From NCBI GenBank assembly GCA_964016885.1, contig OZ024758.1, positions 7,750,001-7,814,000 of the forward strand: a stretch of DNA of 64,000 nt, read 5' to 3'. Below are positions 9,298 through 63,530 of the stretch, piece by piece; within the stretch, counting starts at the first letter, position 1, and each line of letters begins with the position of its first letter. The translations under genes were made by a program, and so were the position numbers. The notes below the pieces were generated by a model. It saw only the letters and a program-made list of their open reading frames with translations, searched no databases and was not told where the DNA came from. Origin of the DNA: Eledone cirrhosa. Taxonomy: Eukaryota.

Positions 9298-10399
9298 ACC
9301 TATCACTGTGTATTTTAAATGACATACATAAAAGTATATATGTGTGAATATACTGATAGCTATACAAACATCTATCACTGTACATAAAAACATATTTGTG
9401 AGAGTATGAATATTGTAATACCACTATTATTTAGAAACCATTACTAAGAATTAAGTTGCTAAAACTTTAACTTAAAACAATACAAATATTAAATTATTAT
9501 ACGAGGATTGCCTGACTACAAAGAAGTGATGTTGTTTTTACATAAAAGAGGAAAAACATCACAGTTGGTTCCAGAATGCCTCTTGCTAGTAATAACTGAA
9601 CCCTTTGGAAATTTTACATTGTATATATGTATATATATATCATCAACATCATCATCATCATCGTTTAACGTCCATATTCCACGCTTGCATGGGTTTGGAT
9701 GGGAGTTTTCCCACTAGAGGCAAGATTGGTTGTCTTGCTCGTATAGGACTGTCTAGCGGGTTTTCTATGGCTGGATGCCCTTCCTAACACCAACCACATT
9801 TACAGTGTGGACTGGGAGGTTTTTACCGTGCTACCTACACGGCCACATTACAGCGTGGACTGTGTGTTTTTTTGTTGTGACACCTACACGACCTCATTTG
9901 TTTCAGACTGGATGTTGTGGTACCAACATAACTTTACATTGAAAGGGGTGGTGTGGATGGGGTGGGGCTAGTGGGACGGGGGTGTATTTTTGTTAGAGGT
10001 GCCTACTGACTGTAGTAGGTTTCACTTTGTACTTAGGTAAGGCGGGTCTTCTGTATTACTGTGTAGCACCAAAGATCTCGGTCCAGTGACATTGTCTTGG
10101 AGAGGTGTAAGTGAGTAATTAGAAAATGTGAAGTAGTTGCAAATGTTAAAGTCCTTTATTGATAAGGCTGTGATACATATTTCAATGACAGTGGCCACAT
10201 AATTCCATGCAACCAGATCCATGATCTCATCAGACAGCTTCATTACATAATAAGGTTACATTCTACAGGCAATCCAAACTAAAACGACAAGGGAACGGAC
10301 AAAGATGATGTTTATGAAGCCTATATATATATATGTGAAATCCATGCAAGCATGGAAAAGTAGTCGTAAAAACGATGATGATGATATTTATATATATAT

Positions 10400-29920: not shown

Positions 29921-31223
29921 CGTTTAACGTCTATTTTCTACGCTAACATGGGTTAGACGGATTGTTTAACGTCTATTTTCTACGCTAACATGGGTTAGAC
30001 GGATTGTTTAACGTCTATTTTCTACGCTAACATGGGTTAGACGGATTGTTTTACGTCTATTTTCTACGCTAACATGGGTTAGACGGATTGTTTAACGTCT
30101 ATTTTCTACGCTAACATGGGTTAGACGGATTGTTTAACGTCTATTTTCTACGCTAACATGGGTTAGACGGATTGTTTAACGTCTATTTTCTACGCTAACA
30201 TGGGTTAGACGGATTGTTTAACGTCTATTTTCTACGCTAACATGGGTTAGACGGATTGTTTAACGTCTATTTTCTACGCTAACATGGGTTAGACGGATTG
30301 TTTAACGTCTATTTTCTACGCTAGCATGGGTTAGACGGATTGTTTTACGTCTATTTTCTACGCTAACATGGGTTAGACGGATTGTTTTACGTCTATTTTC
30401 TACGCTAGCATGGGTTAGACGGATTGTTTAACGTCTATTTTCTACGCTAACATGGGTTAGACGGATTGTTTAACGTCTATTTTCTACGCTAACATGGGTT
30501 AGACGGATTGTTTAACGTCTATTTTCTACGCTAGCATGGGTTAGACGGATTGTTTAACGTCTATTTTCTACGCTAGCATGGGTTAGACGGATTGTTTAAC
30601 GTCTATTTTCTACGCTAGCATGGGTTAAACGGATTGTTTAACGTCTATTTTCTACGCTAGCATGGGTTAGACGGATTGTTTAACGTCTATTTTCTACGCT
30701 AGCATGGGTTAGACGGATTGTTTAACGTCTATTTTCTACGCTAGCATGGGTTAGACGGATTGTTTAACGTCTATTTTCTACGCTAGCATGGGTTAGACGG
30801 ATTGTTTAACGTCTATTTTCTACGCTAGCATGGGTTAAACGGATTGTTTAACGTCTATTTTCTACGCTAGCATGGGTTAAACGGATTGTTTAACGTCTAT
30901 TTTCTACGCTAGCATGGGTTAGACGGATTGTTTAACGTCTATTTTCTACGCTAGCATGGGTTAAACGGATTGTTTAACGTCTATTTTCTACGCTAGCATG
31001 GGTTAGACGGATTGTTTAGCGTCTATTTCTACGCTAACATGGGTTAGACGGATTGTTTAACGTCTATTTTCTACGCTAACATGGGTTAGACGGATTGTTT
31101 AACGTCTATTTTCTACGCTAGCATGGGTTAAACGGATTGTTTAACGTCTATTTTCTACGCTAGCATGGGTTAGACGGATTGTTTAACGTCTATTTTCTAC
31201 GCTAGTATGGGTTAGACGGATTG
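29921..31223. repeat. 42-bp tandem array (~31 copies) derived from a retroposon 3' end
   Basis: Unit gtttaacgtctattttctacgctaRcatgggttagacggatt; matches the dispersed tails at 19561, 21010 and 43803. Confidence 0.92.
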
Positions 31224-31398
31224 TCCCGTTTGGAGAGCAAGTCGGGTCGGGTGACCGTGTCTTAAACTTAAGCTGTGCATGCTTCTAATAAATACAATTT
31301 TTGCATATACACACCAGTACAACTGGGACCACGAAGTGGACGGCATATTATGGTATGAGTAGAGGTGACACTCTTCAGATGAAAGGGTTAATAATGCT

Positions 31399-35145: not shown

Positions 35146-35469
35146 TAGATAGAGAGAGAGAGAATTAAATATGTTATATTGTAGGTAATATGTTTGTCTT
35201 TCTATGATTAAACACACATCTCTGTGTATCTGTGTACTTCTCTCTTTATGTTGATTTATAAAGAGCTCGGAATCTATTCCTTGAGCTAATTAAATTATAG
35301 GGGATTAATGTGAGTTTTTAACTCCAATTTGATATATATATATATATATAGGAAAAAGTATGACCCCGACGGCAGAGCTCAAGCCGTTTCGACGGCTATT
35401 TCTGGACTACTCTAAGTATTGAGTACTCTGGTGCGTTATGGTCCATCTGGTTCCTTACCACATTTCCTT

Positions 35470-35519
<50 letters not shown>

Positions 35520-36411: not shown

Positions 36412-37104
36412 CGAGAAATAAAATTCTAATTTTATTTTATATATTTATATATAGTTTATTCGTGTGTAACTTATTATTATTGGTTCACCAGTTTGAACAC
36501 TCGATGCCTCAGTGGGTCCGGTGGTATTGTACATTTGGTATTTCACCGTAGCCGGTATCCTTATGAAGCAGTGTGCTGTTAATGATAACACTGGTTTCTA
36601 CTTTAAGCACAAGGTCAGCAATTTTGGAGGAGGGGAAAGTTTATTAAATCGACCGCAGGGCATGACTGGTACTTTATTTGATCGATCCCGTAAGGATGAA
36701 AGGCAAAGCTAACCTCGGCGGGATTTGAACTCACAATGTAAAGGACCATAACTAAATACTATCAAGCATCTTGTTAGGCGTACCTTGAGCTGATCGAACG
36801 CGAAACGCGCGTCACACGTGAATAAACACAATGATGCTATGTTGATACCCCGTTCCTACTCATTTTATTATTATTATGATATGTGTCTGTTGGGGGTTAC
36901 AGATCACATCTATGTAGAAGTCCCAGTTCTATTACGAAAAGGTTAACCGCCTCACTGGGAGCAAGTCCATTGCAGGGGTGACACCACCAAGCTGCTGCAA
37001 ATAGTCAGTTTTTGTTTCAGCTTTGTTTTCAGACCGGGGTTACATGAAATATTGCGTCATGCTCAAAGACGCAGTATACTGTCCGTCTCTCTCTCTCTCA
37101 TATA

Positions 37105-37365
37105 TATAATTACATAATAAACAGCACAATATAATTATTCCATTACAAAAGGTTTCGGAAAACTAAACGACCCTTACAGAAACACCCAGCTCGGTCATCA
37201 GATAACTATTTCATTTGATGAACGAGCTGGATGTTTCTGTAAGGATCGTCTAGTTTCCCGAAACCTTTGGTAATGGAATAATTATATTGTGTTGTTTATT
37301 ATATAATTAAATAGCTCTGTACTATATATTGAGCACTCTTCTTTCCTTTACCTTTTCTACGGAAA
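37105..37365. mobile_element. Fold-back family-B hammerhead element (minus copy 37136-37203; plus copy 37207-37280 with a UUGAUGA core variant)
   Basis: Imperfect inverted repeat centred near 37208, homologous to 40055-40209. Confidence 0.7.
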
Positions 37366-37844
37366 TACTTAACATATATAAATATATACACACACACACA
37401 CACACGGCTGAATGTCCTTTGATTCTGGCCACATTAAGAGCTTTCCATTATACCATTAACCTGTATTGTGTTGTCTACCTATTAAAGTTCAATATATATA
37501 TCATCATCATCATCGTTTAACGTCCATCTTCCACGCTAGCATGGGTTTGGACGGTAATTTTCCCACTTGAGGCAAGATTGGTTGTCTTGCTCGTATACGA
37601 CTGTCTGGCAGGTTTTCTACGGCTGGATGCCCTTCCTAACACCAACCAGGTTTACAGTGTGGACTGGGAGGTTTTTACAGTGTTACCTACACGGCCACAT
37701 TACAGCGTGGACTGTGTGTGTGTTTTTTTTTTGTCGTGACACCTACACGACCTCATTTCTTTAGGGCTGGATGTTGTGGTACCACCATATATATATATAT
37801 ATGTATATATTATTCAAAATGAAAAATATTCTCATAATCAAAAT

Positions 37845-37916
37845 ATATACTTTATTATATATATTTCAAAAGTACTGTGTTGTTTTTTCAGTACGTCCTC
37901 ATCAGACAAAATATAT
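37845..37916 (-). ncRNA. Type I hammerhead ribozyme (family C)
   Basis: Minus strand: atatattttgt-CUGAUGA-ggacgtactg..cagtactttt-GAAA-tatata-UA/ataaagtatat; 11-bp stem I (2 wobbles), stem II gtactg/cagtac, palindromic minimal stem III. Confidence 0.75.
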
Positions 37917-38674
37917 GATTTGATATATGACATACCGCTACGGTCTTGATTATTCAATTCCAGTATTGGTAATTAGTTGTCGTGTGTGGCCTTCAGACAA
38001 CAGATACTGCCAATACTGGAATTGAATAATCAAGACCGTAGCGGTGTCATATATATAATAAAGTATATATTTTGATTATGAGAATATTTTTCATTTGTTA
38101 ACATTTTGAATAATATTAAAAACTCCAGGAAAACTTTACAGTTGAGTGCTTCTAATCTATTGTAAAATTGTATTCGTTGAGTAATCAACGAACCATACTA
38201 ATCTTTGGTATATATGTATATGACATAAAATAGCAGCATAAACTCGGCAATAAATTTTTTTTAAACCGTAGAGCGACAAAAGAGAAAAAGGAATGGCGAT
38301 TACGAAGGACATAAAGAAATATAGCCATTATCGGCTCTTTATCAGATATTCTTATAGTTTCGATAGGTTGAGACGGGAATGGTGTATTTGGTGCCAATAG
38401 TGTTTAACACTAGTTTTAAACAGTGCCAGGAAATTGTGTAAACGGAGGTGTGAACAAGTCAAAACAAAGAACATTTCTGAAGAAAGCAGACGTCGAAAAG
38501 GTGACACAAATGTAAATAAATAAACATATAAATACATAAGAGTTATTATACTGAACAGAAATAGGCAGACATCACAATACAGGTTAATGGAAAAGAAGGA
38601 AAGCTCTTAGCGTAGAGTTGAGCTTTTCTCTGAACGTTAAATTGGAGAGAGAGACTCAAAGGACATCCAACAGG

Positions 38675-38709
<35 letters not shown>

Positions 38710-38874
38710 AGAGGTGAGTTTTATTGTAGTACAATAAAACAATGCAGATATCGGATAATAAGCACTCTACAATTTGTAGGACTGGAGTATACATAATATA
38801 TAAGAACAAAAGATAGTATGTTGATTTAAAACTGAACTATCCACAAGTGATTTTTAACCTTCATATCATGTCTT

Positions 38875-38951
38875 CATGTTTTATCTGATGAAAACACAAA
38901 TATTATTGCATGATGATATTTGTTTTTGAAATGCGCATAATAAAATACATG
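38875..38951 (+). ncRNA. Type I hammerhead ribozyme (palindromic tgcgca stem III)
   Basis: catgttttat-CUGAUGA(38885-91)-aaacacaaatattatt..atgatatttgttttt-GAAA(38928-31)-tgcgca-UA/ataaaatacatg; all three stems can form. Confidence 0.75.
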
Positions 38952-39097
38952 GAACTCTTTTAACCATCTTTTGTTCTTATATATTATATATATATATATG
39001 TATATATATATACACACACACACACACACAGTGAATTTCCAACCGATAAGGTAAGATTTTCATGGGTACGTCTCTATATATATTTATAAAACAAACT

Positions 39098-39166
39098 TTT
39101 ATTTTATCTGATGAAAGCGCACCAATGTTGTCTTGGTTGCCCTTGAAATATATATAATAAAATAAA
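39098..39166 (+). ncRNA. Type I hammerhead ribozyme (family D)
   Basis: tttattttat-CUGAUGA(39108-14)-aagcgcaccaa..ttggttgccctt-GAAA(39145-48)-tatata-UA/ataaaataaa; perfect 10-bp stem I. Confidence 0.8.
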
Positions 39167-39298
39167 TATGGTTTTATAAATATAGTTTCCATTTATTCAA
39201 TATCATTGAATATTTACTCCAGTAAACCGTTGAGTGCTCTAAATCAGTTATAAACATTTATGTTTGTCGGACTTCCAACAAATTAAATACAACTTCTA

Positions 39299-39344
<46 letters not shown>

Positions 39345-39524
39345 ACAAAGAAAGTGTGGTAAGATGTCAGGTGGACCATAGTGCACCAGAGTACTCGATA
39401 CTTAGAGTAGTAGAGTGGGTAATAGGAAAAGCGTCAGGACCCCGACGGCTAAGCTCCGGCCGTTTCGACAACTAGCTGTCGAAACGGCCGTAGCTTACCG
39501 TTAGGGTCATGACTCTTTTCCTAT
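39345..39524. mobile_element. Family-E fold-back element (3' half of a hammerhead)
   Basis: Hairpin 39422-39524 around ccgtttcgac..gtcgaaacgg; related copies at 35350-35470, 40240-40372 and 44194-44245. Confidence 0.6.
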
Positions 39525-40135
39525 ATATATGTGTGTGTGCATTGAACAACAAAAATAAAACAGAAGGCGAAGATAGCTTCTTAATTAGTTCATTGTTTTA
39601 CGCTCGTTTCAGAGGGTTGATTGATCATGGTAAATCGATATATTGACTAACAAATAGTGATTATGCCACCATCTATTTTTAGTCTCAATATCCTAGATCC
39701 ATCTCACTTTCTTCAGAAACATTTTGAAGGCTCAAACAGTGTGGAGATTGAAAATAAAGAGAATGTTTTTGCTTTTTACAAAGACTACTCTAACATAGTA
39801 ACAAATATAGTGGAATAAAATCCAAGGTGTAACCCCCTTGTGACAGAAAAAACATACGACATTGGCATGGTTCAATTCAAGCAGAAACTGTTCCCTTTTC
39901 TCCAACTAAAGGGGGTTATATACTAAATAAAAATTTTTTAAAAATCTATATTAAAGTTAATATGCGTTGTAGTAGCCTTTTTAAAAAGCAAAACCTCTCT
40001 CTCTCTATATATACATATATATAAGTGTAGTGTGTGTGTGTTATGTGTTTTTTCCGTAGAAAAGGTAAAGGAAAGAAGAGTGCTCTATATATAGTACAGA
40101 GCTATTTAATTATATAATAAACAACACAGTATAAT

Positions 40136-40209
40136 TATTCCATTACCAAAGGTTTCAGGAGTCTAGACGATCTTTACAGAAACGTCCAGCTCGTTCATCA
40201 GATGAAATA
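40136..40209 (-). ncRNA. Type I hammerhead ribozyme (family B)
   Basis: Minus strand: tatttcat-CUGAUGA-acgagctggacg..cgtctagactcct-GAAA-cctttgg-UA/atggaata; 8-bp stem I, GUA cleavage triplet. Confidence 0.75.
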
Positions 40210-40449
40210 TGCAAATCAAATATATATATATATATATACAGAAATAGCCGGCGAAACGGCTTGAGCTCTGCCGTCGGGGTCATACTTTTTCCTATTTCCC
40301 ACTCTACTACCCTAAGTATTGAGTAGTTTGGTGCGTTATGGTCCATCTGGTTCCTTACCACATTTCCTTTGTTATATATATATATATATTTATTTCGTTT
40401 CTGAATTTGTTTAGCAAGATTCTTTATCTGAAATCGTGTGTTGAAACCG

Positions 40450-40540
40450 ATATTGTTATACTTTGGGAGGGTCATGTTGCCAATAAGAAAGTGCGTGTGT
40501 TTCTTATTGGCAACATGACCCTCCCAAAGTATAACAATAT
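40450..40540. repeat. Hairpin with ~40-bp arms; single-arm homologue at 44030-44082
   Basis: tattgttatactttgggagggtcatgttgccaataagaaa / tttcttattggcaacatgaccctcccaaagtataacaata. Confidence 0.8.
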
Positions 40541-40904
40541 ATATATTTAAAAAACGAAAAACTAATATGTATTAAAATGATAGCATTTAAGATATACAGT
40601 ATATAGCTAAACATGACCTTGATACTAAGAGACAGGTGTTCACCCTGCCTGTACAAGAACAAATATTTCAATGCAGATATTTTAATTTGTAACACCTTAA
40701 ACAAAAGATGTCTCCTAGCTCTACCCAACAACAAAATAAAGAAGACAAAAAGAATACTAACAAGAAACAAGGGAAACAGAATACTCGGTTTCAGCTGTCC
40801 AATATGGGATATTATTTTGCACGCACATTTGCTGCGTATATGTACAAGTTCTTCACGCACCCTCGGATACATCTGCATGTATATACGTATGTATATGTGC
40901 GTGT

Positions 40905-40968
<64 letters not shown>

Positions 40969-41047
40969 AAAGTTATATTTAAAATTGTTGGGTTACAACT
41001 AGTAAATATTTATAACTGATATAAAAGCACTCGACAAATATTTGGAG

Positions 41048-41432
41048 TATATATACAATATTAAATAAATGGAAACTATATTTATAAAACCATATTTATT
41101 TCATTATATATATTTCAGGGATATCATATTAACAATATGCTATGCCTTCCTCAGACAAAATACAATATAAACAGTTTTATAGATAAATAGATTCGACATA
41201 CCGTAACAACATCGACTTGCATTTGAAGAAGTTGATTTGGCAAATCAACCTCTTCAAATGCAAGTCGATGTTGTTACGGTATGTCGAATCTATTTATCTA
41301 TAAAACTGTTTATATTGTATTTTGTCTGAGGAAGGCATAGCATATTGTTAATATGATATCCCTGAAATATATATAATGAAATAAATATGGTTTTATAAAT
41401 ATAGTTTCCATTTATTTAATATTGTATATATA
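41048..41432. mobile_element. ~385-bp near-perfect palindrome with a hammerhead on each strand (+ 41316-41385; - 41095-41164)
   Basis: Centre at 41240, one mismatch seen (41230/41250). tgtattttgt-CUGAGGA-aggcatagcatatt..aatatgatatccct-GAAA-tatata-UA/atgaaata. Confidence 0.8.
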
Positions 41433-41669
41433 TATATATATACACGAAGTTGGCATTAACATCCCAGTCATACTGCATTGTCTAAAAAGTTAAATCAAGT
41501 GATACAGTAGGAATTCTTTCATGTTTGCTTTATGGGATTTGAAAACACCCAAAAGTCTCAGTCTTGGAATTGCAATGATAATATCAGATGAATGATGTTT
41601 TTTTACTCACCATATTTACAAAGTGAGGCTGTATTTACATATATATATATATATTTATTTATTTTATTA

Positions 41670-41892
41670 AAGAAATGACTTCTACAGGACTAGAACTGTT
41701 TCCTTCGTAAAAAAAAAAAAGCCACCAGGAAAGACTTTCCTGTCGGTTTCTTACAAATGAAACAGTTCTAGTCCTGTAGAAGTCATTTCTGTAATATAAT
41801 TATGATGCCTATATTCTACTAACGTATTGAGTACCTCTTTTTTTTAAAATCTATGATCACCTCCCAATATACATTGATAATCCACCTATTGT
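41670..41892. mobile_element. Family-A fold-back element plus 3' tail
   Basis: Hairpin 41670-41790; gactttc-CTG..GAAA-cag-ttctagtc-ctg-UA/gaagtc gives stems I and III; ttgagtacc at 41827. Half copies at 24812-24925 and 46905-47030. Confidence 0.65.
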
Positions 41893-41893
41893 A

Positions 41894-42074
41894 TACAGGT
41901 AAAATTCCATTATAACGAATACCATTAAAACGAATTTTTCAGTATAACATTTTTTTTTTTAATCCCCGAAGTAATAATAAACAAATGCTCGATTTGTTTC
42001 GGTCGAAAGAATTTTTCGTTACAACGAATTTTTTTAATACTGCGTGAAATTCGTTATAACGTAATTTCACTATA
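41894..42074. mobile_element. pogo/Tigger-like MITE
   Basis: tacaggtaaaattccattataacgaat ... attcgttataacgtaatttcacta imperfect TIRs with internal taacgaa repeats. Confidence 0.55.
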
Positions 42075-42855
42075 TTTTTTTTTTTTTTACCTACACAATG
42101 TCAAAAATATGATATATACAGACAGAAGAGCGTCAAATATGTAATATACATTGAAAACTTGTAATTATCTCAAATTATCCTTACAATTAGGAGACAAAAG
42201 TTCAGTGGAGAAGTATTTAAAACAACACCGCCCCCAAAAAGTACCTGTTATTCGAAATATATGTATAATTGTTTCTACTTTTGGCACAAGGACAGCAATT
42301 ATCCTGGTGCATTACTGGTACTTTATTTTATCGATCCTGTAAGTATGAAAGGCAAAGTTGACCTCGGCGGGATTTGAAGTCAGATCATAAAGGGGCGTAA
42401 CTCTATGCTGCAAAGCCTGGTGTCCGACGCTCTACCGATACTGCCAATATAATATAGATGATACAGTTACAAAAGAATGTCTTTAACTTATAACATACTG
42501 TCATGACAAAATAGATAATGTTTAAAAGATGGCTTTGTTTATTGAAATGATTTGAGTGCCTTTACTAGAAGTCAGATTGTTGTGAAAATTGGCAGTATTA
42601 GAGTAAAGACTTTAATTTTTAATTTGATGTTGTCATAGCTCTGTGTTACATTTTTCATATTGCTAATGTGCTTTCATTTAGTACAAGATGTTAAGAGTTA
42701 AAAGCCAGTCGGTAAAAGTGGTTTTACTTGGACCTCCTCGGCAAAACATAACAGTTCAGAAGGCTGTGAGAAAAGCTGACCAAAGCCATCTTGTCAGATG
42801 CTTTAACAATTTCCAGCAACCCAGCATGATGAAATGGTACAAGATATATTGACAC

Positions 42856-43690
<835 letters not shown>

Positions 43691-44654
43691 TAGATGTATT
43701 GACCAAGTGTCCTCAACCGTAGATGTGGATTGAACAATGCCTTGTAATTGAAATTGGCAGACATAAACTACGATGGGGCCTGTTTTATATATCATCATCT
43801 TCGTTTAACGTCCATTTTCCACGCTAACATGGGTTAGACGTGACATATACAACACACGAAAACAAGATGGTGTAGGTCAGAACAAAGGAGAGACACAAAA
43901 TAAAAACCGAGTCACTGAGGATGTCACAGAATGTGTGACGAAAGAGCTTTAACAATATATAAACAGTCATCCGGTTATCGAACCAACCAAACAACCGGAA
44001 ATTCATAATAAATTGAAGTGAAAACCAACAGGTGCGTGTGTTTTTATTGGCAGCATGACCCTCCCAAATTATAACAATATATACCCCCACCCCACTCTCA
44101 AAAGCGTGAGAACCTAATAGACTTTTATTTGTACTGCCTCTCTGTTTTTGTTCTCGTCCATGTTTTCACTATATATATATATATATATATATATAGGAAA
44201 AAGTATGACCCCGACGGCAGAGCTCAAGCCGTTTCGACGGCTATATTGGTGAGTATTGTCTAGTTACTATTGGCTCACCAGTATGAGTACTAAATGCCAA
44301 TATGGGTCTGGTTTCCGATGTGGTATTCCAGGTTTTGTATTACACTGTAGTCAGTATCCTTAAGAAGCAGAGTGATAATAATAATAATAATGAGCAGGCA
44401 TCATTATGTTTATTCACACGTGACATGTGTTTCATGATTGATTGGTTCAACGTATGATTGGTATTGATCACAACCAATAGCTCATTAGACTTGTGGATTC
44501 TCAAATGAATATATATATATATATATAGTTGTATTTAATTTGTTGGAAGTCCAACAAACATAAATGTTTATAACTGATTTAGAGCACTCAACAATTTACT
44601 GGAGTAAATATTCAATGTTATTAAATAAATGGAAACTATATTTATAAAACCATA

Positions 44655-44720
44655 TTTATTTTATTATATATATTTCAAGGGCAACCAAGATAACATTGGT
44701 ACGCTTTCATCAGATAAAAT
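44655..44720 (-). ncRNA. Type I hammerhead ribozyme (family D copy)
   Basis: Near-identical reverse complement of 39098-39166; the element spans ~44525-44787. Confidence 0.75.
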
Positions 44721-45283
44721 GCAAAGTTTGTTTTATAAATAGAGACGTACCCATGAAAATCATATCTTATCGGTTGGAAATTCACTGGATATGTATGTAT
44801 GTATGTATGTATGTATGTGTGTATGTAAGTGTGTGTGTGTGCTTTGTGTCATGGGACTAAGCAGTTAGAAAAGTAGAGATTGATGAAAGAAGTATCAGAC
44901 TTAAAAGTAAGTACAGGGATCGACACGATTAACTGAATCTTTGAAGGTGGTACTCCAAGATGGTCATAGACTGACTGTGAAGGAGTGATGCTAGAGCTGT
45001 GAAATCTAACATACATTAATTTCAACTCTGCTTGTCTATAACTGCATTGTTTGAAAAACAAATCTCATTTGATCATTCTATGAGTATCTTGGTCAGCCTA
45101 TGAACTTTCCAGCTGACCGTCAGACTATATATATCATTATCGTTTAATGTCCATTGTCCACACAAGCATGGGTTAGATGAGCTGTCCCATCATGAGACAA
45201 GCCAGGTCGGAGGACTGTGTTTTGCTCATAGAGAACTGATTTTGGCTTGGTTTCCACAGAGGGATGTCATTCCTAATGGCAAC

Positions 45284-45314
<31 letters not shown>

Positions 45315-45317
<3 letters not shown>

Positions 45318-45487
45318 GGAACGAGTAGGACCCCGACGGCTGAGCTCAAACCGTTTCGACGGCTAATTCTGCCGTCGAAACGGTTTGAGCTCAGCCGTCG
45401 GGGTCCTACTCGTTCCTATTACCCACTCTACTGAGTACTTTGGTGCGTTATGGTCCACCTGGTTCCTTACCACATTTCCTTCGTTAT
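45315..45487. mobile_element. Family-E fold-back element (3' half of a hammerhead)
   Basis: Perfect ~49-bp arms 45315-45419; GAAA-cggt..gccg-UC forms stem III with a GUC triplet. Confidence 0.65.
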
Positions 45488-45784
45488 ATATATATATATA
45501 TATATATATATAGCAATAATAATAAATTTGAAGACTAAAATCCAAAGAGAGCTCGATAAGGATAAATATATATCAAATATATAAGAACCGTAGAGCAAAT
45601 ATGTATTAAAATAACAGATTAAAGTTTAAGCAAAGAATCGCTGCTTTTACCCTTAACGGGATCATCTGAAACTAACCATATATATATATATATAAACAAT
45701 TGTTAGACTGTAAATAAATTCCCCTTTTTGTACTGTTGACCATGTTATTCTTCACATTTATTTCAATTTTATATATATATATAT

Positions 45785-45920
45785 ATATAATAATATATGT
45801 AGTAATAAACAGTAAATCGTGTCTAAAATTACGAGGGTTGAAATACCACATTGGTTTGACGTTGGTTTGACGTAATTTTAGACACGATTTACTGTTTATT
45901 ACTACATATATTATTATATA
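45785..45920. repeat. Inverted repeat with ~45-bp arms next to (TA)n
   Basis: tataataatatatgtagtaataaacagtaaatcgtgtctaaaattacg and its reverse complement. Confidence 0.8.
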
Positions 45921-46006
45921 GTGCTCAGTATTTATACTTTGAGCTTGTTAATTACAGGGTATCAATATGAGTTATTAACTCTGCCTTTTATTTGTGTGTG
46001 TATGTA

Positions 46007-46310
46007 TATATATATATATATAAAATAGAGGTGTGACATACGAGTTGTGATATATTAGTAAAAAGGAAAAGAAAATGCTGACAAATTTTTCCCAGTGAAA
46101 AAATAGTTTAATTAGGAATAAGTATAAATTAGTAATAAGTATTGGTTAGTATTCAGAAACTGAATACTAACCAATACTTATTACTAATTTATACTTATTC
46201 CTAATTAAACTATTTTTCACTGGAAAAAATTTGTCAGCATTTTCTTTTCCTTTTTACTAATATATCACAACTCGTGTGTCACACCTCTATTTTATATATA
46301 TATATATATA
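46007..46310. repeat. ~300-bp near-perfect palindrome between (TA)n tracts
   Basis: Centre attcag-aaa-ctgaat at 46158; a few mismatches/indels between arms. Confidence 0.85.
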
Positions 46311-46333
46311 TATTTGTTAAAATAACAGATTAA

Positions 46334-46384
46334 AGTTTAAGCAAAGAATCGCTGCTTTCACTCTTAACGGGCTCTTCTGAAACT
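46334..46384 (-). ncRNA. Hammerhead-like fold with a variant CAGAAGA core (family F); second copy 45623-45673, partial copy 32992-33128
   Basis: agttt-CAGAAGA-gccc-gttaa-gagt-GAAA-gca..tgc-UU/aaact; stems are formable but core U4 is A in both copies. Confidence 0.45.
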
Positions 46385-46635
46385 AAGGATAAATATATAT
46401 CCTTATCGAGCCCTCTTTGGATTTTAGTCTTCAAATTTATTATTATTACTATATATATATATGTAGAGGTTATATTTAATTTGTTGGATACAACAAGCAA
46501 AATATTTTTATAACTGATATAAAGCACTCAACAAATTAATTGGAGTAAATATACAATATATTAACAAATAGAAACTATATTTAGGTTGCATTTTTCAGGG
46601 TATGTCAATATTTATTTATAAAACTAATCTATATT

Positions 46636-46703
46636 ATATTTTATCTGATGAAAGCGCACCATAATCTGCCTTGGTGGCCTTTGAAATATGTATAATGAAA
46701 TAA
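46636..46703 (+). ncRNA. Type I hammerhead ribozyme (family D variant)
   Basis: atattttat-CUGAUGA(46645-51)-aagcgcacca..tggtggccttt-GAAA(46683-86)-tatgta-UA/atgaaataa. Confidence 0.65.
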
Positions 46704-47204
46704 ATATGGTTTTATAAATATAGTTTCCATTTGTTAATATATTGCATATATATATATATTCCAAAGCAAGGTTTTTTAATATATAACACGCAGGTAAAAA
46801 TATAGGACAAAGAAGATGAAAATGCAATTGGAATCTTTAAGAAGATTGAAAATAAACCTTCTTAAAGACTCCAATTGCATTTTCAACTTTTTCCCACACA
46901 TATCTATATTCCTGATAATATCATACGAATGAAACAGTTCTAGTCCTGTAGAAGCCATTTTAAAGATGCCTATATTCTACCAATATATTCTGTACCATTT
47001 ATAACTGGTTACCCTCGACACAACTTGGTAATATATATATATATATATATATATTCATTTTATTAAGACAAGTTCTTATCTGCTGACCCTGTCCTAAACA
47101 GGCAAAACTCCTGAGTAACACGACTCACTATTCAGCCTTAAAAAAAATGAATATCAAAACTCTATTTTGGTATTGAGTACTCCTCTCTCTCAGCCACCAA
47201 CCAG

Positions 47205-47320
<116 letters not shown>

Positions 47321-48327
47321 ATGGGAAATGGACTCTCCTACAGAAAACAATGTATGAGTGTTCAGTTATTCAATCAACTGAACAACAGAGTTATTAAATT
47401 AGCATGTGAAGTGACTGTATTAGATAGACATGGTATAGCCCAATATATTTCTCAAGTGGAATCAGTGTGAAGCAAGATGTCAACACTGCACCTTCAAATT
47501 ACAGATACAGTCAATCTGACAGGATTCCACATATATTCTGTCTGCCTAATTTAATGTATAGTTGAGGTTGTGATGAAAAATACGACACTTGCTCAAGATT
47601 ACCAAGGGGTGGGCGGTGAAACACCGGAGGAAACATTTTAATCACCAAGCCATGCCTATATGCACTCAATAAATGTATGAGTTTAACCCTTTAGTTACCA
47701 ACCACGGCCAAAACTGGCTCTGCTTCTATGAAATAAAATCACCCATTTTAAAGGTTTCCAATTTAAATTAAAATCTTTCAACATAATTTTATATAAGAAC
47801 CTTACATTAAGTTACTGTCTTAGTAATGAAATAATTTTAGTAAATCTCCCAAAATTCTCCATTAATTTAATAAAATAGAGTGTATTCCTTTAGAAATACG
47901 GTCATGAAAAGGTTAATGTGCATTAACAATGAAATATGGATGAGCTGTGAGAAAAACGGTATAAGAGGAACCAGATGTAGTGATAGTGGGCAAGTGAGAA
48001 GACGACGCTGGTATGGACATGTGATGTGGATTGTTGGGTGAAGAAGTGCCTAGAAATCCCAGTGGAAGGAAGCTATAGTAGGGGCAGGTCAAGGAAGAAG
48101 TGATGAAGGAAAGCAACGAGTGGGGGAAAGCTGCGCTGGAAAAGATACATGCAAACCTGTAAAAATGGATGTAAAAGGATGATGATAATATCAGCAGGAA
48201 TTAAAATATATATATATATATATATATCAATACTAATCACGAATGACCATGGGTTTTGCACCTTGAAAGTTTCCATCTGAGGCACAAGCCCAGGAAAGGT
48301 GTTATTTGTGGACGATAAGCACATCTG

Positions 48328-48367
<40 letters not shown>

Positions 48368-49001
48368 CCACCGATGTTGTCCAAGGGAAATACAAAGGCC
48401 GGTACAGCTTGTCACCAGTGACGGACTGGATTGGTATAACGTAAAATAAAGTTTCTTGCTCAAGGACACAACGCACCGTCTGGCCCGGAAATCGAACTCA
48501 CAATCTCGGGATTGTCAATCCAATGCTCGAACCACTAAGCCATGCACCTCCAAACGCACACACAGATAGATTCACATAAACACCCAAAATATAGACATGC
48601 ATATATATGTATATATACTTATATATATACACATACATATATATAATAATAATTGTTTCTACTTTTGGCACAAGGCCAGCATTTTTCTCCAGTGCATTAC
48701 TGGTACTTTATTTTATCGACCCCGTAAGGATGAAAGGCAAAGTAATGAAATGATTGCGTACAGTTCTCAGGTGCACATACATATATACATTCATATATAT
48801 ATATATATACATAAATATGTGTATATATATATGCCTATGTATGTATGTATGCATATATATGTGTGTGTATTTATGTATATATATTTATCGTTAATTCGTG
48901 AGCTGATTTTCCGATACTCGATTATTCTATTATATATATATATATATATATAAATGTATACATGTTATGTATACAAATAAATGTATTCTGTTATGTGTGA
49001 G

Positions 49002-49053
<52 letters not shown>

Positions 49054-50041
49054 TAACAGTATACATTTATTTAATAATTAAATCAATTTAAATGTCTATA
49101 GAGATTGTAAGCCATGATAAAATTGTATATAAATATATACATAAATATGTGTGTTTATATATATATATATACATATAAACACACATATTTATGTATATAT
49201 TTATATATAGACACACACATATATATATGTGTGTACGTGTGTGTACATATATATGTATATATGAATAATATGTACCCATACGCATGTATGTATATAAATA
49301 TATACACTTAAATACAGATATACACTTAAATACATATGCACCTAAATATTTACCTACACACACGTATATAGTATGATATATTTATAAATATATAAACACA
49401 TACATACAAACATTTATATTTAAATAAAAAATATATTATCTGTGTACAGATATATATATATATATACACGTTCAGTAAATACGGTCGTAAAAATGAGTAC
49501 TCGATACCATAGTAGATTACTGTTATTATCTATATTGGTTTCTTATATAGGCACAAGGTCAGCAATTTGGGGGGGGGGGGGGAGAAAGTCGATTAGATCG
49601 ACCTCAGTGCGTGACAGGTACTTTATTTTATCGACTCCGCAAGGATGAAAGGCAACGTTAACCACTATGTCCCTTTATGATCTGAGTTCAAATCCCGCCG
49701 AGGTTAACTTTGCCTTTCATCCTTACCGGGTCGATAAAATATAGTACCAGTAATGCACTGAGTTATTGCTGGCCTTGTGCCAAAAATAGAAACAATTATT
49801 ATCTATATTAAGGTCGAGCATAAGTCTTTTTTACTGTGGAATTTCCTCTGTACTCACTGTCATCTATATTTATCTATATATACATCTCTCTCTATATGAA
49901 TGTTTATACATGCGTATATATATATATATATATATATTTAGAAGTTATATTTAATTTGTTGAGATACAACAAGCAAATATTTTTATAACTGAAATAAAGC
50001 ACTCAACAAATTTTTGGAGTAAAAATACAATATATTAACAA

Positions 50042-50450
<409 letters not shown>

Positions 50451-59090: not shown

Positions 59091-60057
59091 CTTCCTGAGA
59101 TGTTAACTAATTTATTTCACTGGGACTCTCACTAATGGCTAGTCTTGAAATTTTCATGAGTGGAGAATATATTTATGAAGTTTTAGTATTTAATTTGGTG
59201 TTCATAATCACCGTCAACTATGGTCATGAATCTTGAGTAATAGTAATAACTGGAAGAATATGATCACGAATACAAGAGGCCAAAATATGATTCCTCTGAA
59301 GGGTCTTTGGTGTAACATTACTCAGAGATCTCAGTCACTCCAGGTAGAGCCGCTACCTCTTCAAATTGAGAGGTTACAGCTCTGATATTACAGACATGTG
59401 GTTAGAATGTCTCAGGAAAAAATTGCTGGACAGATTTTATGGGCAAAACCAGCCAGCACTTTCTCAAATTTTTTGTTTATTTCTGGCTACTTATATGCTG
59501 GGAGTAATTTGGTTTGCTTGTTTGTTTGTTTTTAGCAGACATGAGCACCATCTCCTGAATGTAAGAGATGTTTATTTATAAAGTACACATCGAATGAAAT
59601 GAATGCCTTAAAAAACTTGGAAACCATTCGGAATTACCTCCATCTATTGCTCTTCATTCACTTAACTAAAAATCAAATAATTGTCTGGCCAGTCTGCTGA
59701 TATGCAAATCTGGCTGATCAGTGGATCTGCTAATATGCAGATCTGACTGATCAGCCAGTCTGCTAATATGCAAATCAGGCCGATCAGTCACTGTATTTTT
59801 GAAAATAGCATATATTTTCACAGTTTGGCAGGTGAACAGTGAGCTGTACTGATGAAGGGTGATACCCAGAAACATTAGTGTCTGCAGTTCTGTTCTCATG
59901 CCAACACAAGAGCAAGAATGAAGTGTTCATTCTACTGACATGGCTATAAAATTGAGGCTTGTTTGCAAAATTACAAACGGATGAAATGTTATTATTAATA
60001 TTCGAAAAACTCAGATTACATTTATTGTATTCAGCCATGTAGAGTGAAATTTTCTTT

Positions 60058-63200: not shown

Positions 63201-63388
63201 ATTCGTAGCAACTTTGAAGGTTTTAAATACATGTTGTCCAATACTAGAAAGGGCAAGGTATGACACTTGCTAGTAGGGACAGAAGAGTGTAAATGATGAT
63301 GATGATGATGACGAAATTGTTGTTTTTCCACAAATTGTCTATTATCATTTAGAAAATTTTTGATTTTACGGGCAAAACCAGCCTGCAG

Positions 63389-63530
63389 GAAACCCAGGAG
63401 TAGACCCTGAGCAAGATGGTTGGATAACATCTATAGGAAACCCAGGAGTAGACCCTGAGCAAGATGGTTGGATAACATCTATAGGAAACCCAGGAGTAGA
63501 CCCTGAGCAAGATGGTTGGATAACATCTAT
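63389..63530. repeat. 48-bp tandem repeat, 3 copies
   Basis: gaaacccaggagtagaccctgagcaagatggttggataacatctatag. Confidence 0.9.

What the first reader, a model, noticed from the sequence alone, without database searches (positions are those of the whole stretch)
37845..39166. Palindromic minimal stem III (tatata vs tgcgca) implies dimer-dependent cleavage
Seen: three neighbouring hammerheads have only 6 nt between GAAA and the UA cleavage site, and all are self-complementary (TATATA, TGCGCA, TATATA), a compensatory change that preserves palindromy. Established: such minimal hammerheads (newt satellite 2, Penelope type) cleave efficiently as dimers. Inference: copies of different families sharing TATATA could cross-activate as heterodimers.
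Basis: partly seen in the sequence, partly recalled or inferred. Interest (0 to 1): 0.75.

Follow-up and report, generated by a model that had tools for sequence, protein, structure and literature searches.

The report
Penelope hammerheads with self-pairing loops
The three self-cutting RNA motifs are leftover ends of three related Penelope-type jumping genes, and across tens of thousands of genomic copies their short third stem stays able to pair with itself, so they likely cut as pairs, as already published for this kind of element; cross-talk between families remains untested.

Summary
Observation confirmed: three type I hammerhead motifs with loops TATATA, TGCGCA and TATATA. They are 5'-truncated 3' ends (pseudo-LTRs) of three related Penelope-like retroelement families with Hydra-clade motifs, inserted in (TA)n. 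Fuller copies elsewhere carry an RT plus GIY-YIG-type ORF upstream.

Genome-wide, 71,195 of 74,390 pattern matches of this clade (95.7%) carry one of four self-complementary hexamers. Only 60% are strict palindromes. The commonest, TATGTA (26,449), pairs through G·U; its strand mirror TACATA, which cannot pair, has 107. One older subfamily holds both TGCGCA and TACGTA, a real double change. This supports selection for two-copy pairing. The natural partner is likely the second identical hammerhead 3.5-4 kb away in full-length elements.

Dimer cleavage of such hammerheads is published, and this scan found the same system before on other DNA of this genome. The heterodimer idea is weak at this locus: the two TATATA copies lie on opposite strands, and the same-strand pair has mismatched loops. 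Heterodimers also need compatible stem I. Cleavage was not tested. New member of a known kind.

The parts
37787..37810 (.). (TA)n microsatellite at the short 3' end of the family C insertion
   Evidence: sequence; alignment to L213
37817..37969 (-). Family C (my label, motif #1): sense arm of a 5'-truncated Penelope-like pseudo-LTR, short 3' end
   Evidence: 97% identical to L213:4972-5124, which lies downstream of an RT/EN ORF at L213:1816-3750
37856..37905 (-). Hammerhead #1; hexamer TATATA at 37858-37863; predicted cut between 37856 and 37855
   Evidence: the cut site follows from the hammerhead consensus
38006..38221 (+). Inverted second arm of the family C insertion, with the long (tail) end; the hammerhead core is deleted in this arm
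38705..38817 (-). Inverted tail-bearing arm of the family D insertion, after a (TA)n tract; it has no hammerhead core
   Evidence: 95% identical to L194:2780-2892
38817..38992 (+). Family D (motif #2): sense arm of a 5'-truncated pseudo-LTR, ending in (TA)n
   Evidence: 97% identical to both pLTRs of full-length copy L194; 99-100% identical to the best genomic matches
38885..38939 (+). Hammerhead #2; hexamer TGCGCA at 38932-38937; predicted cut after 38939
39029..39301 (+). Family E (motif #3): 5'-truncated pseudo-LTR with tail, between (CA)n and (TA)n
   Evidence: 94% identical to L209:6845-7112, downstream of RT/EN remnants at L209:4752-5834
39108..39156 (+). Hammerhead #3; hexamer TATATA at 39149-39154; predicted cut after 39156
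40144..40201 (-). Neighbouring hammerhead with non-palindromic 7-nt loop CCTTTGG (3-bp helix III); serves as an internal contrast
37215..37272 (+). Neighbouring CCTTTGG-type hammerhead with a changed first core base (TTGATGA), in a fold-back insertion

Best explanation
The three motifs are hammerheads in the truncated 3' pseudo-LTRs of three related Penelope-like retrotransposon families, and their self-complementary stem III is likely kept by selection because the source elements are predicted to cut as a two-copy (double) hammerhead. Shown: the motifs, their families, the upstream RT/endonuclease ORFs, the (TA)n targets, the inverted arms and the genome-wide loop spectrum. Inferred: in a pLTR-ORF-pLTR transcript the two identical hammerheads, 3.5-4 kb apart, pair their A-N6-U segments into an 8-bp helix III and swap stem I strands. 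Both sites are then cut and a unit-length RNA is released, while a single copy mostly escapes cutting. The window copies have no compatible same-strand partner nearby and are most likely inert by-products of retrotransposition.
For: ORF link: 30 of 30 loci chosen by the family D endonuclease carry the D hammerhead downstream, and 33 of 35 of these hammerheads read TGCGCA. A 799-aa ORF has YRDD, DKT and CxCx5C. Families C and E have related ORFs upstream, 39-54% identical over the matched stretches. 4 of 12 long-ORF loci have a second same-strand hammerhead upstream of the ORF. Loop spectrum among 74,390 matches: TATGTA 26,449, TATATA 23,836, TGCGCA 20,280, TACGTA 630, TACATA 107. TATGTA and TACATA are reverse complements, so DNA mutation makes them equally often; only the G·U-compatible one spread (247:1), at two adjacent positions that cannot pair inside one hairpin. 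Controls: in an older subfamily decay is strand-symmetric (TGTGCA 5 vs TGCACA 4; TATGTA 3 vs TACATA 4), while two palindromes dominate (TGCGCA 49, TACGTA 25, single intermediates 1 and 1; hand tally of the first 100 of 342 matches). There is no sense-strand A>G excess in family D copies (singletons A>G 53, T>C 101). TACGTA falls in two clades and TATGTA in several places of a tree built without the hexamer. Folding: the active monomer fold lies 6.4-9.8 kcal/mol above the ensemble, P(A15.1-U16.1) 0.0003-0.0016; homodimers gain 12.6-19.9 kcal/mol over two active monomers. Contrast: the CC-NNN-GG class (14,942 matches) folds actively as a monomer (P 0.48) and its loop varies without complementarity (TTT, TCT, ACT, ATT). 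Published dimer model: PMC4209133, review PMC6765202, PMC3088659 Fig. S8 legend.
Against: No cleavage or expression data. Copies are not independent: the 247:1 ratio rests on a handful of subfamily-level fixations, and the tree is noisy (13 of 28 inner branches open). The count pattern fixes the flanks and the outer T and A of the hexamer and does not match the exact subfamily of motif #1; for that family 22 of 22 distinct copies chosen by likeness read TATATA. TGTATA would pair as well as TATATA (-3.2 kcal/mol) yet is 1 of the first 100 listed, so pairing alone does not predict which variant spreads. Hammerheads with a 2-bp helix III plus tetraloop cleave from single-copy constructs in invertebrates (PMC7229834). 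All three motifs lack the G10.1-C11.1 pair. Even homodimers are only about level with the inactive monomer ensembles (-0.3 to +1.8 kcal/mol for C, D, E). 8 of 12 long-ORF loci lack a direct upstream pLTR copy. In an anole Penelope element, hammerhead cleavage was not needed for insertion in vitro (PMC11167929, passages).
Confidence: 0.72

Rival explanations
1. The hammerheads cut adequately as monomers (2-bp helix III plus tetraloop, helped by long stems I and II or by proteins). Dimerisation only adds to the rate, and the loop spectrum reflects loop stability plus ancestry.
For: Mussel and coral retrozyme hammerheads cleave from single-copy constructs, and axolotl HHR_Amex2 with the same helix III size gives 22% in 1 h (PMC7229834). 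TGTATA is rare although it would pair. The number of independent loop changes is small.
Against: The central dinucleotide is TA, TG or CG at subfamily level and CA only as scattered decay, and adjacent bases cannot pair in a monomer. Predicted occupancy of the active monomer fold is about 0.1%. The monomer-competent 7-nt class does not keep complementarity.
Confidence: 0.18
2. One reading: copies of different families with the same or compatible loops activate each other as heterodimers in vivo, including the copies at this locus.
For: C and E stems I are cross-compatible, 8 bp each way. The predicted E x F and E x G heterodimers are about as good as homodimers (+0.8 and +1.8 kcal/mol against monomer ensembles). 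TATATA and TATGTA loops pair with each other (-3.2). About 50,000 compatible copies exist, and nested same-strand neighbours occur, e.g. L071 at 457 nt.
Against: At this locus #1 and #3 are on opposite strands and point away from each other. C x E is 4.5-6 kcal/mol worse than either homodimer; C x D and D x E are 14-16 kcal/mol above the monomer ensembles. An unrelated TATATA family cannot swap stem I. Pairing in trans needs two rare transcripts to meet and to open 8-11 bp of stem I.
Confidence: 0.08
3. The palindromes are a by-product of AT-rich, TA-microsatellite-prone DNA or of A-to-I editing of the transcripts, with no pairing constraint.
For: TATATA is common in this DNA, and TATATA to TATGTA is a sense-strand A>G change.
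Against: TGCGCA, TACGTA, CCATGG, CGATTG, CAATTG, CTAG and CGCG loops occur in other families. There is no A>G excess on the sense strand. A double change with rare intermediates is seen in one subfamily.
Confidence: 0.02

Closest known systems
Hammerheads in pLTRs of metazoan Penelope-like elements (Cervera and de la Pena 2014, PMC4209133, parts 1-2 of 4 read; Lunse, Weinberg and Breaker 2016, seen only as a reference and through review PMC6765202)
   Same: Type I hammerhead in the pLTR; short palindromic helix III; long helix II; mostly solo truncated copies and opposite-strand pairs 100-700 bp apart; dimer model.
   Different: Helix I is 8-11 bp, not 4-5. There is no G10.1-C11.1 pair. The loop is six nucleotides rather than none or two. 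Here a genome-wide loop spectrum with a strand-mirror control is available.
Hydra clade of C-terminal EN+ Penelope-like elements (Craig et al. 2021; bioRxiv 10.1101/2021.04.23.441226 section 11 read; PMC8557442 passages)
   Same: DKT motif, CxCx5C linker, C-terminal GIY-YIG-type domain, hammerhead present, insertion into (TA)n, inverted 5'-truncated arms, tail at one end.
   Different: The unit is about 3.5 kb (the paper says generally under 3 kb). The two 3' ends of family D lie about 83 nt apart (L194 2809 and 2892) against the 30-40 bp tail described for PLEs. Tree placement was not tested.
Metazoan non-LTR retrozymes, above all axolotl HHR_Amex2 and newt satellite 2 (PMC7229834, sections 14-15 read; bioRxiv 10.64898/2026.07.22.740005, part 1 of 5 read)
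   Same: Type I hammerhead. HHR_Amex2 has the same 2-bp helix III plus tetraloop and cleaves better as a dimer.
   Different: These three families are dispersed ends of ORF-bearing elements, not 170-400 nt tandem repeats. The newt-type helix III is 1 bp plus tetraloop.

Membership tests
Type I hammerhead ribozyme | CUGANGA, GAAA and UH core with stems I and II | tested here: met
Type I hammerhead ribozyme | G10.1-C11.1 pair closing stem II | tested here: not met
   the closing pair next to GAAA is A-U or G-U in all three motifs (sequences)
Type I hammerhead ribozyme | Match to an Rfam hammerhead model | tested here: not met
   no hammerhead family at gathering score or among 38 matches at E up to 10
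Type I hammerhead ribozyme | Self-cleavage at UH | not testable with these tools
   needs in vitro transcription or raw RNA reads
PLE dimer-type hammerheads (Cervera 2014) | Palindromic 15.2-16.2 positions and loop 3 | tested here: met
   95.7% self-complementary with G·U allowed, 60.2% strict
PLE dimer-type hammerheads (Cervera 2014) | Located in pLTRs flanking a PLE ORF | tested here: met
   L194 is pLTR-ORF-pLTR; L213 and L209 for families C and E
PLE dimer-type hammerheads (Cervera 2014) | Short helix I (4-5 bp) of the min-HHR consensus | tested here: not met
   8-11 bp; these are not min-HHRs in the strict sense
PLE dimer-type hammerheads (Cervera 2014) | Faster cleavage as a dimer than as a monomer | not testable with these tools
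   only nearest-neighbour energies
Hydra clade of PLEs | DKG modified to DKT | tested here: met
   P0002 residue 123; seen for family D only
Hydra clade of PLEs | CxCx5C linker before the endonuclease | tested here: met
   families D, C and E
Hydra clade of PLEs | Single ORF with RT and C-terminal GIY-YIG endonuclease | tested here: met
   799 aa, YRDD at 357, LIY...YFG at about 678-694. Pfam gives no significant hit for P0002, so the domain call rests on motifs and on 13 homologues at 33-38% identity
Hydra clade of PLEs | CCHH motif absent from the endonuclease | tested here: inconclusive
   no CxxC between the two halves of the GIY-YIG motif, but no alignment to reference PLE proteins; my notebook entry 2 wrote CCHH without a test
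Hydra clade of PLEs | Insertion into (TA)n | tested here: met
Hydra clade of PLEs | Placement in the Hydra clade on an RT tree | not tested
Non-LTR retrozymes | Tandem 170-400 nt repeats without an ORF | tested here: not met
   dispersed copies downstream of ORFs; no tandem array at this locus

The most novel reading that the evidence does not exclude
Stem III plus stem I form a self-recognition code for paired cleavage. About 50,000 TATATA/TATGTA hammerheads of many subfamilies make one cross-reacting pool whose transcripts can cut each other in trans or in nested read-through RNAs, and the young TGCGCA family escaped that pool by a stepwise compensatory walk through TACGTA, which insulated its processing and helped its recent burst.
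Probability: 0.12. Interest if true: 0.65.

Novelty: new member of a known kind. Interest (0 to 1): 0.3.

Why it matters
The dimer model for Penelope hammerheads rests on in vitro constructs with low activity and on noting that loops are palindromic. This genome offers a natural test set. It has tens of thousands of copies, a strand-mirror pair (TATGTA against TACATA) that separates RNA pairing from DNA mutation, a compensatory pair inside one subfamily, and a monomer-competent sister class as contrast. That gives ready mutant and rescue pairs for a bench test of whether pairing of two pLTR copies gates processing. The mechanism itself is published, and the three window copies are probably inert.

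Tried and rejected
Rfam scans gave no hammerhead match; the miRNA-like hits below threshold are fold-backs and microsatellites. Pfam and PDB gave nothing significant for the 799-aa ORF; only a neighbouring element's fragment had a weak GIY-YIG match (E 0.01). No PLE ORF lies in the window. RNA evidence: no RNA holder listed; the three runs laid were contigs and cannot show cleavage ends. The GAAA-CGGCCG-TA stretch near 39482 looked like a fourth palindromic hammerhead, but none of its listed relatives has a CUGANGA core upstream and most read CGGCTT; rejected. A-to-I editing as the source of TATGTA was rejected. Lunse et al. 2016 is not held, so I could not check whether it tested heterodimers or G·U loops; its text and the supplements of the other papers, which I did not open, may bear on novelty. 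Literature searches: hammerhead, Penelope, dimer, palindromic: 7 papers; hammerhead ribozyme plus octopus, a host guess from recalled repeat likeness: 5 papers, 4 listed, none by title about these families; hammerhead, heterodimer, Penelope: none of the 20 listed holds all three terms.

Full report
Observation. The three motifs are present as described: 37856-37905 on the minus strand with loop TATATA, 38885-38939 with TGCGCA and 39108-39156 with TATATA on the plus strand. Each has the CUGANGA, GAAA and UA core, a stem I of 8-11 bp and a 30-36 nt stem II hairpin. A descriptor with free loop length finds 9 motifs in the window against a mean of 0.02 in 200 block shuffles. In 600 kb taken at even steps from twelve contigs it found 14, with 0 in the reversed control and 0-2 in five shuffles. 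Two further neighbours within 1 kb of the finding have the non-palindromic loop CCTTTGG. Rfam does not detect any of them. I label the families C (#1), D (#2) and E (#3); these labels are mine.

What the motifs belong to. The window lies in a 3.0-Gb genome. All three motifs are repeated: the first look gave 450, 2,554 and 105 candidates for D, E and C (lower bounds). Fuller D copies continue upstream through a long 3' untranslated region into an ORF. [quoted passage not shown] Of 30 loci chosen by the endonuclease region alone, 30 carry the D hammerhead downstream, and 33 of 35 hammerheads there read TGCGCA. Families C and E also follow related ORFs, in L213 and L209, with the CxCx5C linker. 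Insertions end in (TA)n, often have an inverted truncated arm, and use two alternative 3' ends. These are the features given for Penelope-like elements and, for DKT, CxCx5C and (TA)n, for the Hydra clade. The Hydra lead came from an earlier scan note and I tested the motifs myself. The window holds no such ORF, so the three copies are 5'-truncated ends.

Is the palindrome under selection? One flank pattern with a free inner tetranucleotide matches 74,390 places, with 0 for the reversed control. TATGTA has 26,449, TATATA 23,836, TGCGCA 20,280 and TACGTA 630. Together that is 71,195, or 95.7%; the strict palindromes are 44,746, or 60.2%. TACATA, the reverse complement of TATGTA, has 107, scattered over many stem II types. 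DNA mutation cannot prefer one of the two, but RNA pairing can, since G·U pairs and C·A does not (self-duplex -2.2 against +2.6 kcal/mol). The two positions are adjacent, so they can pair only with a second copy. Two controls hold. In an older D-like subfamily, decay products are symmetric (TGTGCA 5, TGCACA 4, TATGTA 3, TACATA 4), while TGCGCA (49) and TACGTA (25) dominate and the single intermediates number 1 and 1; this is my hand tally of the first 100 of 342 matches, with 8 others. Family D copies show no sense-strand A>G excess. A tree of 31 cluster representatives built without the hexamer puts TACGTA in two clades and TATGTA in several places, but it is noisy because truncated copies bring unrelated flanks. 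Limits: copies are not events, the pattern fixes the outer T and A and misses the exact subfamily of #1, and TGTATA would pair but is 1 of the first 100 listed.

Internal contrast. A second class, GAAA-CC-NNN-GG-TA, has 14,942 matches, a few counted twice. Its active fold is the predicted monomer minimum (P of the A15.1-U16.1 pair 0.48), against 0.0003-0.0016 for the five six-nucleotide motifs folded. Its loop varies among ACT, TTT, TCT and ATT without keeping complementarity. So self-complementarity is kept where helix III is weak and relaxed where it is stable. Palindromy is therefore not universal in this genome.

Likely mechanism. In the double-hammerhead fold each core uses the UH and the stem I 3' strand of the other copy (established model: PMC4209133; review passage). 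Homodimers of C, D and E gain 12.6-19.9 kcal/mol over two active monomers and come level with the inactive ensembles (-0.3 to +1.8; nearest-neighbour energies at standard state, no tertiary contacts). The natural partner is built in: 4 of 12 long-ORF loci have a second same-strand hammerhead upstream of the ORF, 3,555 nt away in L194. Paired cutting would release a unit-length RNA. This step is inferred. Against strict dependence, PMC7229834 reports good single-copy cleavage for invertebrate retrozyme hammerheads and 22% in one hour for axolotl HHR_Amex2, which has the same helix III size and improves as a dimer. PMC11167929 found cleavage dispensable for insertion in vitro. The three motifs also lack the G10.1-C11.1 pair.

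Heterodimers. The two TATATA copies lie on opposite strands and cannot share a transcript. The same-strand pair D and E, 223 nt apart, has incompatible loops (+5.7 kcal/mol; whole dimer 14.2 above the monomer ensembles). C x E is possible on paper, with 8 bp of cross stem I each way, but at +6.3 it is worse than either homodimer. Closer subfamilies, E with the copies at 41326 and 46645, are predicted about as good as homodimers (+0.8, +1.8). An unrelated TATATA family cannot swap stem I. So a shared hexamer is neither sufficient nor shown to act; cross-cutting within the TATATA/TATGTA clade stays open.

Comparison and verdict. The system works like the published dimer-type hammerheads of Penelope pLTRs and meets the tested motif features of the Hydra clade; tree placement was not tested. 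It is not a retrozyme array. Palindromic helix III as a sign of dimer action is in print. Lunse et al. 2016 could not be read. My searches listed no paper on these families or on cross-family heterodimers, which does not show that none exists. Earlier notes of this scan describe the same system elsewhere in this genome; a word search for the TATGTA/TACATA test found no note. New member of a known kind; interest 0.3.

Noticed in passing
window 37100-50400: The window is rich in hammerheads: 9 in 64 kb by a strict descriptor against 14 in 600 kb sampled elsewhere by a similar one. Several families are nested in each other's (TA)n tracts.
   Followed up: partly
window 41048-41432: Near-perfect 192-bp fold-back (99%, 1 nt between arms) with a TATATA hammerhead in each arm, probably a very recent two-armed insertion. 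A similar pair lies at 50078-50315, with TATATA in one arm and TATGTA in the other.
   Followed up: partly
window 39422-39524, 35342-35517, 40239-40393, 44187-44244, 45300-45512: Another abundant (TA)n-associated repeat end with fold-back arms and a GAAACGGC stretch; no hammerhead core upstream in the copies listed. Family not identified.
   Followed up: partly
window 59849-59882 (+) and 10172-10233 (-): Hammerheads of unrelated families with G·U-self-complementary loops CATTAGTG and TATGTA and a UC cut site; the second is an independent TATGTA case.
   Followed up: partly
L194:2810-2892: The family D tail between the two 3' ends is about 83 nt, longer than the 30-40 bp described for PLEs. In the full-length copy it runs on into the leader of the ORF.
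   Followed up: partly
window 36790-36815 (+): CTGATCGA-ACGC-GAAA-CGCGCG-TC resembles a collapsed hammerhead with a palindromic hexamer but has no stem II and no stem I pairing by eye.
   Followed up: no
window 29922-31224: 31 copies of a 42-bp unit, 98% alike, matching the start of a short dispersed repeat such as the one at 37512-37547.
   Followed up: no
window 63387-63530: Three perfect copies of a 48-bp unit, a multiple of three in length; possibly a coding repeat.
   Followed up: no
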